Positions 12,001 through 15,000 of a stretch of DNA of 64,000 bases are shown here, in pieces. Position 1 is the first letter of the stretch, and the number at the start of each line of letters is the position of its first letter. Origin of the DNA: Mizuhopecten yessoensis (Eukaryota); assembly GCF_002113885.1 (NCBI RefSeq), contig NW_018404481.1, forward strand, positions 1,187,710-1,251,709, given 5' to 3'. A program made the position numbers.

Positions 12001-15000
12001 TGTAATGATTTATTTGCATTTTCTTTTTCAGATTAAAATCCAAGATGGGGGGGTTTCTATCCAAGATCTTCGGCAATAAAGAAATGAGGATATTGATGCT
12101 GGGCCTAGATGCAGCAGGAAAAACTAGTATCCTTTATGATATTACAAAGTTACCTGGTGATTTGGTGATGACTTTTTTTTCTTCTGACAAATCAAAGTTT
12201 TTAAATTCAATCTATTATTTCTTTGATCTTTTCTTTCTATGACAAGTTCCAGTCAATTATTTCAGTCCCATGTTGATATGAAGTGTAAATGCCAATGTTT
12301 ATTCTAAAGATATCAATTAAGAAATGTTTGATACACTGTATTTTGATAATTTTGTTTGCCACAAATTTAGTACTCGATTTATTTGTGTTTGTTTGTCTGG
12401 GTGTGATGTGTTGTCATCCTTAACCGGTTTCCAGCTGTTTTATATAAAATCAAATTAGGTCAGAATGTTACAACTATACCAACAGTGGGCTTTAACGTGG
12501 AGACTGTGACGTATAAAAATGTCAAGTTCTCTGTATGGGTAGGTGCTTTTGGTTTGTCACAAAAAATTTGTACTAATATCACATGTTTACATGAAAATAA
12601 TACCCACAATACATTGATTATCAAGTGGTAATCTACTAAAAATGATGAAACATCACACTTCATGAATTTTGTTTCTTTATCATTTATCTATTAATTTTAA
12701 ACCACTAATGATACAGGTGAAGGCCTAGGAGAGCAAAGGATTACTCTGCATATATGTATACATGATACGCATGTTTGTATTTTTGAGTGCCTGCTGCACA
12801 AAAGTTTTGTCGCTTACTACTGTCTGGGAGTGAAAGGTGACAGAAATGGAGCGAGTGTGCAGATGGAAGCTTGCTCAAAGCGTTCTTATAATGTCTGCAA
12901 TATTTTCTAAATAATTTTACCATTATGTTTACGACAAAAGCTTTTCATCTTTGCCCTTGTACAGCATAAAAACTAAATCTGTTCACATACCTTGACTAAA
13001 TGATTAATTGGACAACAAAAAATGAATATGCAGATATCTTACTTGACCTCAAAGGAAATAGTCTGAAGCATTTGAATTGGAACAGTACTAAAAAGTGTCA
13101 AAGCAATATTTACATACTAGAAAAAAATGCTGAGTTACCAAAACGAGATTTTTTTCTATGTTGAGTCCCCATAAGTTCCCGAATTGAAAGATGTTATTAA
13201 GTATGGTTTGTATGTTGGGTTCAATAGACAAAACATCTTGAATCTTACAGTAACAGTGGCTGGGAAGAGAAATTATTATGTATGAGTTGACATCATTTAA
13301 TTCAGTTTGAATACATCGAAAACACTGGATAGGGCCTAGTACATCGAAGAGAAAATTAAAGCACATGTGTTGGATCACCACTCCTACCGATCACCCGTAA
13401 AATGGCCTGCACTCTCTATAACAGATTGAGAAACCGTCGTGCAGCAGATTACGATCACTATCAAAAACTTAATGGCATGCTATTTAATCTGTGGTTCAAG
13501 ATTGTGCACCAGGGCGAGAACTGCAGGTTAAACTTTTAGCAAACTATACAGTCTTATTCTCTTTTGTGCTATTTATAGAAAATTGATGGCCCTTCCCATA
13601 AAAAGTGTCCAATATGTAGTACAATGTTCAGTATTCCAGTGTTCACTGTTCAGTAGCTTCATAAAACTTAAGTATCTGCAGATTTGATTAGAACCTAGAA
13701 TGTTTGAACAGTAGAGTTCAGAAAAAATGACTTAAAACCTTTTTATTACCTATCTATTCTTAATGCCGTGCCCGCACTTGAATGTCTTTAGACATGTATC
13801 GAGTTATATCTGAGTGTAATGTATTGTCATCCTTAACCGGTTTCCAGCTGTTTTATATAAATTAAAATTAGATACGAATGTTACAACTATACCAACAGTG
13901 GGGTTTAACGTGGAGACTGTAACGTATAAAAAGGTCAAATTCTGTGTATGGGTAAGTATTGCTGGTTGTTGTAGGGCTGACAGTGTGTCCTGTGATAAAA
14001 AAAATGTACTTTTAAAAGTTTTGATATGAAAATACTGTCATATATATCTGTTATAACAAAGCATTTATCTACAGAAAATCACACATCCATAAGTATAATA
14101 GGCCACCTGAGACTCACTATTGCGATTATCTCTCTATAAACAATCCATATTTTCGACTTCTCAAAAATGGATGAACAGGCGGAAACATGTTTGAAACATC
14201 GGATTCAGAGAATTGCTAAGTTGGATGATTAATTCCCATGTCAATTGTCATAAAAGAAATTTAATATTTATTATAAAAAAGCTTGACAGCCATTGCTTCA
14301 GAATACAAACCATGATGAAGAACTTAAATCCTGATTTAATCAAGAAAAGCTTGGGAGTTATTGCTTCATTTAACAGTTATTGCATTTAACATTTTGCACA
14401 ATTTATTGTATTTACAGAATGCAAAATTACCACACCAAAACAGACAATTTTATTGGTCTGCATTTTCGCATTGAGCAAATTTTGTATTCAGAAACAGATT
14501 ATATCTGATATGAAATATCAATCTAGCAAACAAACAAAAATCCTAATAAGAATCTGCCAGGATCACAACCCTGACCAAACATTGTGTGTAGCAGATGAGT
14601 GGTGTGTACCGGGCCCTTTGGACCCCTTGTTTATATTTTAAATTCTTTTATCAGTAATGATGTTATACAGCACTGTTTAATTTAAATCAAAGATATCAAC
14701 AGATCAAAACAAAAAGATAATATCCTCCTTCTTTATGGTCTCTTTTAGTTCAAAACGTTTTGAACGATTGTTTAACTGACATGGAACAGCCAACAATACT
14801 TTTAAAAAACTGATTTGGAACAGCCATTTTTGCAAGAACAAAATCCTGATTACTATTATTACCAGTTCCGTCGGTCAGCCAACGTCAATCGGTAAACCAT
14901 TCAAGAATTTCTGTCATAATTTTAATTTGACATCATTTCATGATTTGTCCCTGTCCAATTTCTTGAACATTTTGAAGGAAAGCCCGAGTAGCTCTTGCTC

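What the first reader, a model, noticed from the sequence alone, without database searches (positions are those of the whole stretch)
12435..13951. The two ARF6 exon variants differ at effector-specificity positions
Seen: 10 nucleotide differences in 104, only 3 of them synonymous, changing I33/L, G36/D, Q37/T, N56/K and S60/C, while the 24 intronic nt before the acceptor are identical. Established (from recall): Q37/S38 in switch I and interswitch residues including N60 distinguish mammalian ARF6 from ARF1 in actin remodelling and JIP-family effector binding. Inference: exon choice could switch GEF/GAP/effector preference. Relaxed selection on a spare copy is the alternative explanation.
Basis: partly seen in the sequence, partly recalled or inferred. 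Interest (0 to 1): 0.65.

Follow-up and report, generated by a model that had tools for sequence, protein, structure and literature searches.

The report
Scallop ARF6 alternative exon pair
A scallop ARF6 gene carries two copies of one small exon, only one of which can be used per transcript, giving two versions of this trafficking switch protein that differ at five surface residues; the second version is already in the public annotation, but whether it behaves differently is untested.

Summary
The window holds a four-exon ARF6 gene, taken for Yesso scallop (Mizuhopecten yessoensis), not human. Exon 2 occurs twice: 2a at 12435-12538 and 2b at 13848-13951. Each copy is 104 nt, with 10 nt differences and 5 residue changes (I33L, G36D, Q37T, N56K, S60C). 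The 24 intronic nt before each acceptor are identical.

Using both copies or neither breaks the frame, so they are mutually exclusive. The 2b form equals RefSeq XP_021345813.1, "ARF6 isoform X2", so the isoform is already annotated. I found no paper on it.

Exon 2a is near the canonical animal ARF6 sequence; 2b carries most of the derived changes. All changes avoid the invariant switch I core and sit at positions that vary across the family.

Relaxed selection is not excluded: dN/dS is 0.50 and not distinguishable from 1. No other protein in the database carries a 2b-like exon. Relatives' genomes and RNA-seq could not be searched.

The recalled roles of Q37/S38 and N60 are supported by papers. 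However, both scallop forms already lack S38, N60 and T79.

Verdict: a real mutually exclusive exon pair, a new member of a known kind (like Rab6A/A'). The specificity switch is plausible but unproven.

The parts
12045..12126 (+). ARF6 coding exon 1 (M1-T27 plus the first base of codon 28). It holds the G2 myristoylation glycine and the GLDAAGKT P-loop. The donor GT is at 12127-12128.
   Evidence: tblastn of P0008
12396..12434 (+). Shared acceptor-side intron element upstream of exon 2a. The last 24 nt are identical to the 2b copy. It contains CTTAAC (a possible branch point, by inference), a pyrimidine-rich run and the AG.
12435..12538 (+). Exon 2a, 104 nt, codons 28-62 (switch I and interswitch). 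It is the near-canonical version (G36, Q37, N56, S60, I33). Donor is TGG|GTAGGT.
12539..13847 (+). 1309-nt intron between the two exon copies. Apart from its two ends it is unrelated to the other flanks.
13809..13847 (+). Shared acceptor-side intron element upstream of exon 2b.
13848..13951 (+). Exon 2b, 104 nt, codons 28-62. It is the divergent version (L33, D36, T37, K56, C60). Donor is TGG|GTAAGT, closer to consensus than the 2a donor. It is the exon used in RefSeq isoform X2.
17981..18179 (+). Exon 3, 199 nt (D63 to the first base of codon 129). It holds DVGGQ, switch II with A79, and NKQD.
18525..18667 (+). Exon 4 coding part (rest of A129 to S175, plus the TGA stop).

Best explanation
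This is a class III Arf (ARF6) gene of a scallop in which the ancient 104-nt exon coding residues 28-62 was duplicated within the intron. [quoted passage not shown]

Shown:
- Both copies keep the same length, phase, open frame and canonical AG/GT sites.
- Because 104 is not a multiple of 3, including both copies gives a stop six codons into 2b.
- Skipping both shifts exon 3 into a frame that stops at 18115-18117.
- Only one-copy mRNAs therefore encode a 175-residue GTPase.
- A public RefSeq model, isoform X2, uses 2b.

Inferred:
- Exon 2a gives the default ARF6, close to the sequence shared by corals, insects and mammals.
- Exon 2b gives a second, lineage-restricted isoform. Its nucleotide-binding and switch I core (N38-K55) is untouched.
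- Exon 2b re-codes the N-terminal edge of switch I (D36, T37) and the interswitch hairpin (K56, C60). In mammalian ARF6 this surface is read by actin-remodelling effectors and by JIP3/4.
- The isoform choice would then alter which GEFs, GAPs or effectors the GTPase engages, without changing its catalytic core.

My rough odds:
- A real mutually exclusive pair with 2b spliced into mRNA: about 0.85.
- 2b kept by selection: about 0.6.
- 2b changes partner preference: about 0.35.
For: Gene model and exon duplication.

Frame logic: 2b read in phase 0 gives LFYIN then a stop; the shifted exon 3 frame ends at 18117.

The 2b isoform is a public record: P0008, 175 aa, matches the 34 exon residues at 100%. 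It is XP_021345813.1, ARF6 isoform X2 of Mizuhopecten yessoensis. It maps at 100% onto exons 2b and 4 and at 98.5% onto exon 3, where the hit runs two bases past the exon end; exon 1 matches only within a 72% hit that runs on into the intron.

ARF6 identity: Pfam Arf 253.1 bits against a cut-off of 22.3. The best solved relatives are ARF6 chains at 351 bits, against at most 268 bits for ARF1.

Placement of the changes:
- 0 nonsynonymous changes in core codons 38-55 (40.3 sites) against 6.5 in the two edges (39 sites). My arithmetic on the counts puts the chance that five random codons avoid the core at about 0.02.
- In 59 unique exon-2 segments from 279 of 299 hit proteins, the changed positions are family-variable columns: 36 has G in 47%, 37 has Q in 73%, 60 has N in 73%, 56 has N in 85%, and only position 33 is at 95%.
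- D36 with T37 occurs in 8 other hits, including a named fungal ARF6 (P0031). K56 occurs in 6 other hits.
- The Pfam Arf score is nearly unchanged: 39.3 bits for 2a and 37.8 bits for 2b.
- Only 91 of 4000 random 10-substitution versions of 2a score as well as 2b, using a profile built from hits first seen in the 2a search.

Positions 37 and 60 are documented specificity positions.
Against: - dN/dS between the copies is 0.50 and not different from 1 (Fisher p = 0.41). The counts (6.5 N, 3.5 S) fit one copy drifting neutrally.
- Given exactly five changed residues, 36 of 324 random versions score as well as 2b under the conservative profile. The benign look of the changes is therefore only weakly significant. 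The stronger result (5 of 4000) uses a profile enriched by the 2b query itself.
- No other protein carries a 2b-like exon. Apart from P0008, the best identity is 88% among the 120 listed of 1224 longer hits. Among the 118 near-length hits it is 86% over most of the exon, with two fragments reaching 88-92% over about half the query. C60 is unique to P0008.
- I saw no transcript data. That RefSeq alternative isoforms need transcript support is my recollection, not a call.
- Both isoforms already lack three of the residues known from mammals (S38, N60, T79), so the mammalian specificity code may not transfer.
Confidence: 0.55

Rival explanations
1. Exon 2b is a spare copy under relaxed selection. 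It is a fairly recent duplicate that still has working splice sites, so it enters some transcripts, enough to be modelled as isoform X2. It has no role of its own and is drifting.
For: - dN/dS is 0.50, not distinguishable from 1.
- The counts of 6.5 nonsynonymous and 3.5 synonymous changes are what one neutral branch plus one constrained branch would give (my arithmetic).
- Four of the five radical or unusual states (D36, T37, K56, C60) sit in 2b, while 2a stays near canonical.
- No 2b-like exon appears in any other protein found.
- C60 is seen nowhere else.
- With the residue count fixed at five, 36 of 324 random versions do as well as 2b.
Against: - All changes avoid the 18 invariant core codons.
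- Three of four 2b-specific residues occur in working ARF6 relatives.
- The Pfam score drops only 1.5 bits.
- Length, frame and both splice sites are intact, and the 2b donor is the better one.
- Exon 2a has also changed: I33 is derived, and S60 differs from the common N. Divergence is therefore not confined to one copy.
Confidence: 0.3
2. Both exons are used and kept, but the five residue differences do not change partner choice. The pair would then serve regulation only (for example tissue-specific splicing control or dosage), or be a neutral but stable polymorphism of isoforms.
For: - The changed columns are the most variable ones in the family, so they may simply be tolerant.
- Rab6A and Rab6A', the closest analogue, are described as largely redundant in the abstract of PMC7538953 (listing).
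Against: - Positions 37 and 60 are documented effector-specificity positions in mammalian ARF6.
- G36D, N56K and S60C are not conservative changes.
Confidence: 0.12
3. The second copy is an assembly artefact, such as a collapsed or duplicated haplotype.
For: None specific.
Against: - Similarity is confined to 159 nt and falls to random within 40 nt upstream and 20 nt downstream. A haplotype duplication would copy long flanks at near identity.
- The copies differ at 10% of bases.
- A RefSeq model uses the second copy.
Confidence: 0.02

Closest known systems
Rab6A / Rab6A' (human RAB6A gene)
   Same: A small GTPase gene gives two isoforms by alternative use of a duplicated exon. The isoforms differ in 3 amino acids (abstract of PMC7538953). 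Only Rab6A binds Rabkinesin-6, while other partners bind both (passages of PMC2174079 citing Echard et al. 2000).
   Different: A different GTPase family (Rab, not Arf) and a different lineage (vertebrates). That the exon is duplicated and lies near the GTP-binding motifs is my recollection of Echard et al. 2000, which was not held. Here five residues change, in switch I and the interswitch, and no binding data exist.
coq-2 exon 6a/6e in nematodes, annelids and molluscs
   Same: A pair of mutually exclusive homologous exons. One is like the pan-eukaryotic sequence and the other is lineage-specific. A few residue changes switch the protein's specificity (passages of PMC7434440). The same paper notes that mrp-1 has same-length mutually exclusive exons that arose independently in several lineages.
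   Different: An enzyme's substrate choice, not a GTPase's partners. The e-form residues are invariant across many species and the function is shown by knock-outs. For ARF6 exon 2b neither conservation nor function is shown.
Mammalian ARF6 against ARF1 specificity residues
   Same: Positions 37 and 60, changed between 2a and 2b, belong to the residues that set ARF6 apart from ARF1. Q37/S38 act in actin remodelling. T53, K58, N60 and T79 act in JIP4 binding.
   Different: Mammalian ARF6 comes from a single coding sequence with no such exon pair (recalled). The scallop variants do not toggle between ARF6-like and ARF1-like states. Both have N38 and A79. Position 60 is S or C, never N or the ARF1 residue.

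Membership tests
ARF family, ARF6 (class III) subgroup | Arf domain above Pfam's curated cut-off | tested here: met
   PF00025 scores 253.1 bits against a cut-off of 22.3 for P0008. Each exon 2 peptite alone also passes: 39.3 bits for 2a and 37.8 bits for 2b.
ARF family, ARF6 (class III) subgroup | N-terminal MG for myristoylation, and the GTP-binding motifs [13 protein letters not shown] and NKQD | tested here: met
   The motif names are recalled; their presence is read from the sequence.
ARF family, ARF6 (class III) subgroup | Closer to ARF6 than to ARF1-5, with the same length and no gaps | tested here: met
   Solved ARF6 chains score 324-351 bits and align 1-175 to 1-175. The best ARF1 scores 268 bits.
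Mutually exclusive exon pair from tandem exon duplication | Two neighbouring homologous exons of equal length and phase, each with its own AG acceptor and GT donor | tested here: met
   Both are 104 nt and both enter in phase 1. Acceptors are identical; donors are GTAGGT and GTAAGT.
Mutually exclusive exon pair from tandem exon duplication | Joint inclusion or joint skipping destroys the reading frame | tested here: met
   104 mod 3 = 2. With both included there is a stop six codons into 2b. With both skipped the exon 3 frame stops at 18117.
Mutually exclusive exon pair from tandem exon duplication | Transcripts that carry one or the other copy | not testable with these tools
   Only indirect evidence exists: RefSeq isoform X2 carries 2b alone. 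The X1 record was not retrieved (best identity 91%). No RNA-seq was available.
Mutually exclusive exon pair from tandem exon duplication | Both copies conserved in related species | tested here: inconclusive
   No other 2b-like exon appears among protein cluster representatives. Exon-sized pieces are rarely predicted as proteins, close isoforms are merged at 90% identity, and no animal genome collection was available.
Mutually exclusive exon pair from tandem exon duplication | Competing intron RNA pairings (docking and selector sites). This holds for some clusters only and is not required. | tested here: not met
   The best duplexes of the two acceptor elements and the two donor regions with the rest of 12000-18700 are matched by 25, 23, 17 and 12 of 25 shuffled queries.
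Isoform pair with different effector specificity (Rab6A/A' type) | Differences lie on partner-binding surfaces | tested here: inconclusive
   2 of the 5 changed positions (37, 60) are documented for mammalian ARF6. I found no statement on positions 33, 36 or 56. No coordinates were analysed.
Isoform pair with different effector specificity (Rab6A/A' type) | Measured difference in partner binding or activity | not testable with these tools
   This needs experiments.

The most novel reading that the evidence does not exclude
A scallop lineage has turned its single ARF6 gene into a splice-selectable pair. Exon 2b re-codes the edge of switch I and the interswitch hairpin while leaving the catalytic core untouched. 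That would create a second class III Arf with its own set of exchange factors, GAPs or effectors (for example motor adaptors of the JIP3/4 type, or actin regulators). It would be a splicing-based route to the functional diversity that other animals obtain through Arf paralogues. The unique surface cysteine C60 might add redox or lipid control.
Probability: 0.3. Interest if true: 0.55.

Novelty: new member of a known kind. Interest (0 to 1): 0.36.

Why it matters
ARF6 is among the most conserved trafficking switches. Its exon 2 peptide is identical in the coral, insect and mammalian sequences seen here. A natural pair of isoforms that differ only at five residues of the effector surface would be a ready-made experiment on how Arf specificity is encoded. 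It would also add an Arf example to the short list of small GTPases diversified by duplicated exons. If 2b proves to be a drifting spare copy, the locus is instead a snapshot of an exon duplication early in its fate.

Tried and rejected
- **Relatives.** Three protein searches, run exon by exon, looked for 2b-like or 2a-like exons elsewhere: against longer proteins, against near-length proteins. Only the scallop's own isoform X2 matched 2b. The 2a search did not return the scallop's X1 record, probably because it is merged into another species' 90% cluster (inference).
- **Joined model.** The X1 model (exon 1 + 2a + 3 + 4) was not assembled or searched. The full-length protein used is the database record P0008.
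- **RNA pairing.** A scan for docking and selector pairings found nothing above shuffles. A first version timed out. The 17-nt complement to the 2b donor (pair I19) was therefore not pursued.
- **Further copies.** No further exon 2 copy or other Arf gene is in the window.
- **Assembly artefact.** Rejected on flank identity.
- **dN/dS.** It could not separate the hypotheses.
- **Neutral simulation.** It gave only weak support once the number of changed residues was fixed (one search failed on a command-line option, diagnosed).
- **Papers.** Isabet et al. 2009 (PMC2750013) and Echard et al. 2000 (PMC15039) are not held, so their content is cited second-hand. Four literature searches returned no paper on an ARF6 exon pair or on scallop ARF6 isoforms: ARF6 with mutually exclusive exons; tandem exon duplication with GTPase; mutually exclusive exons with mollusc; ARF6 with scallop. 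Supplementary files were not opened, and no claim here rests on them.
- **Modelling.** Structure and complex prediction were not run.
- It used a wrong frame; one search is the correct translation of exon 1.

Full report
**What is in the sequence.** The region belongs to a four-exon ARF6 gene on the + strand.

| Exon | Coordinates | Content |
|---|---|---|
| 1 (coding part) | 12045-12126 | [27 protein letters not shown] plus one base |
| 2a | 12435-12538 | codons 28-62 |
| 2b | 13848-13951 | codons 28-62 |
| 3 | 17981-18179 | DVGGQ ... NKQDLPD plus one base |
| 4 (to the TGA stop) | 18525-18667 | rest of A129 to S175 |

With one copy of exon 2 the coding sequence is 528 nt, giving 175 residues. 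The window has two single N positions (6332 and 36754), far from the gene; they were left alone. I take the window for Yesso scallop, not human (see below).

**Check of the observation.**
- The copies are 104 nt each and differ at 10 bases, in codons 33 (two bases), 36, 37 (two bases), 46, 52, 56, 58 and 60.
- Three codon differences are silent. Five change the residue: I33L, G36D, Q37T, N56K, S60C.
- The 24 intron bases before each acceptor are identical. The next 20 match at 16 of 20. The first 20 bases after the donors match at 12 of 20. Beyond that, identity is 2-9 of 20, which is random.
- The repeat finder reports one 159-nt block at 89% identity. tblastn finds no third copy.
- The numbering equals that of human ARF6, because the scallop protein aligns 1-175 to 1-175 of the solved ARF6 chain 2a5d_A without gaps.

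**What it is.** The 34-residue exon peptide was under the tool's size limit. I therefore gave the contiguous genomic stretch of the exon plus ten in-frame intron codons.
- The 2b query hit one protein at 100% over the 34 exon residues: P0008, 175 aa. This is XP_021345813.1, [quoted passage not shown].
- P0008 maps back at 100% onto exons 2b and 4 and at 98.5% onto exon 3, where the hit runs two bases past the exon end. Its first 27 residues equal the exon 1 translation. The window is therefore this scallop or something nearly identical, and the 2b isoform is already in the public annotation.
- P0008 is an Arf-domain protein (253.1 bits against a cut-off of 22.3). It is closer to solved ARF6 chains (351 bits) than to any ARF1 (at most 268 bits).

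**Why the exons are mutually exclusive.** 104 is not a multiple of three.
- If 2b follows 2a, it is read as LFYIN and then a stop.
- If both are skipped, exon 3 is read in the frame that ends at 18117 (ORF 17956-18117). That is 62 nt before the last exon junction.
- Only single-copy transcripts encode the GTPase.
- Both copies have the same acceptor. The donors are GTAGGT for 2a and GTAAGT for 2b, and 2b is the better match to the consensus (the consensus is recalled).
- A scan for intron pairings of the docking and selector kind gave nothing above shuffled controls: 25, 23, 17 and 12 of 25 shuffles reached the observed energy for the four query elements.

**Direction of change.** The exon 2 peptide ILYKLKLGQSV...YKNVKFNVW is shared by the solved mammalian ARF6, by a sand-fly record and by a coral record, the latter apart from I29V in one of its two copies and T53S.

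| Copy | Residues differing from this common sequence |
|---|---|
| 2a | V29, I33, N38, S60 |
| 2b | V29, D36, T37, N38, K56, C60 |

V29 and N38 are shared, so the duplication (or a later gene conversion) post-dates them (inference). Exon 2b carries most of the later changes, but 2a changed too.

The exon itself is an old unit. In 112 of 268 hit segments with enough flank, unnamed genomic open reading frames read through both of the same intron positions. That sample is biased by the intron-derived words in my queries.

**Selection or decay.** Nei-Gojobori gives 3.5 synonymous changes in 22.7 sites and 6.5 nonsynonymous in 79.3 sites. dN/dS is 0.50 and not different from 1 (Fisher p = 0.41). 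These counts fit one copy drifting freely, so relaxed selection stands as a live rival.

Four results speak against plain decay:
- All nonsynonymous changes lie outside codons 38-55: 0 in 40.3 sites against 6.5 in 39 sites. By my arithmetic, five random codons avoid that core with a probability of about 0.02.
- Among 59 unique exon-2 segments from 279 of 299 hit proteins, four of the five changed positions are family-variable columns. D36 with T37 occurs in 8 other hits, including a named fungal ARF6. K56 occurs in 6 other hits. C60 occurs in none.
- The Pfam Arf score is 39.3 bits for 2a and 37.8 bits for 2b.
- Among 4000 random 10-substitution versions of 2a, 91 score as well as 2b against a profile built only from hits first seen in the 2a search. 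With exactly five changed residues it is 36 of 324. With a profile of all hits, which is biased towards 2b, it is 5 of 4000 and 1 of 329.

Taken together this is mild, not decisive, evidence of constraint.

**Age (inference only).** The synonymous divergence of about 0.17 rests on 3.5 changes and is very uncertain. The sharp end of similarity at -40 and +20 fits two scenarios. One is duplication of a unit of about 160 nt, followed by growth of the intron. The other is an older duplication refreshed by a short gene-conversion tract. I could not tell these apart.

**Relatives.** Apart from P0008, no protein reaches more than 88% identity to the 2b query among the 120 listed of 1224 longer hits. 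Among the 118 near-length hits the best is 86% over most of the exon, and two fragments reach 88-92% over about half the query. This is weak evidence of absence, for three reasons. Exon-sized pieces are seldom predicted as proteins. Isoforms merge at 90% identity. The 2a search did not even return the scallop's own X1 record (best 91%). No animal genome or transcript collection was open.

**The specificity claim.** The literature supports the recalled facts.
- ARF6 Q37E/S38I is the effector-domain mutant defective in actin remodelling but not in trafficking (passages of PMC3207291).
- A review names T79 in switch II and T53, K58 and N60 in the interswitch as the residues by which JIP4 prefers ARF6 to ARF1 (passages of PMC10547916). 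The primary paper was not held.
- So two of the five changed positions are documented.

The scallop, however, departs from the mammalian code in both isoforms. Position 38 is N. Position 60 is S or C. Position 79 is A. Exon 2b does not approach ARF1. Whether exon choice changes partners is open.

**Comparison with what is known.** The closest analogue is Rab6A/Rab6A'. These are two isoforms that differ in 3 residues (abstract of PMC7538953), and only one binds Rabkinesin-6 (passages of PMC2174079). That they arise from a duplicated exon is recalled from Echard et al. 2000, which was not held. Molluscs also use same-length mutually exclusive exons to switch COQ-2 specificity (passages of PMC7434440). 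Four searches found no paper on an ARF6 exon pair or on scallop ARF6 isoforms.

**Verdict.** This is a real, already annotated mutually exclusive exon pair in scallop ARF6, and a new member of a known kind. The functional reading is plausible and testable, but unproven.

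Noticed in passing
window 15079-15668: A 147-nt tandem repeat (4.1 copies, 80% matches) lies inside the 4-kb intron between exon 2b and exon 3.
   Followed up: partly
window about 21035-21211, 21647-21766, 24069-24305, 26855-27201, 28728-28892: An interspersed repeat recurs in both orientations downstream of the gene. It shows up as open frames with near-identical strings such as ...SPLKFHNELFQPLNWKSSNVSSGVNE.... It is probably a short mobile element.
   Followed up: no
window 41698-43555, - strand: Two adjoining open frames carry BTB (88.6 bits), BACK (68.9 bits) and Kelch-repeat (58.2 bits) domains. 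This is a KLHL-type gene on the opposite strand.
   Followed up: partly
window 34545-34937, + strand: An open frame has a sub-threshold match to the TYW2 N-terminal domain (25.5 bits against a cut-off of 27.8).
   Followed up: no
window 12411-12434 and 13824-13847: The shared acceptor element contains CTTAAC, which looks like a branch point, and the 8-nt palindrome AACCGGTT. Two unnamed genomic open frames from other organisms (P0007, P0010) read LNH.PA just before the same exon, against LNRFPA here. The intron end may therefore be conserved beyond scallops.
   Followed up: no
window 13954-13970 and 14785-14801: A 17-nt stretch starting at the third base of the exon 2b donor is 88% complementary to a site about 800 nt downstream (pair I19). 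The duplex scan did not place it above shuffled controls.
   Followed up: partly
hit proteins: In 112 of 268 segments, unnamed genomic open frames read through both boundaries of the same 34-codon exon. The ARF6 exon 28-62 is therefore an old and widespread unit. The sample is biased by the query.
   Followed up: partly
window 6332 and 36754: Single N positions. They were left as they are.
   Followed up: no
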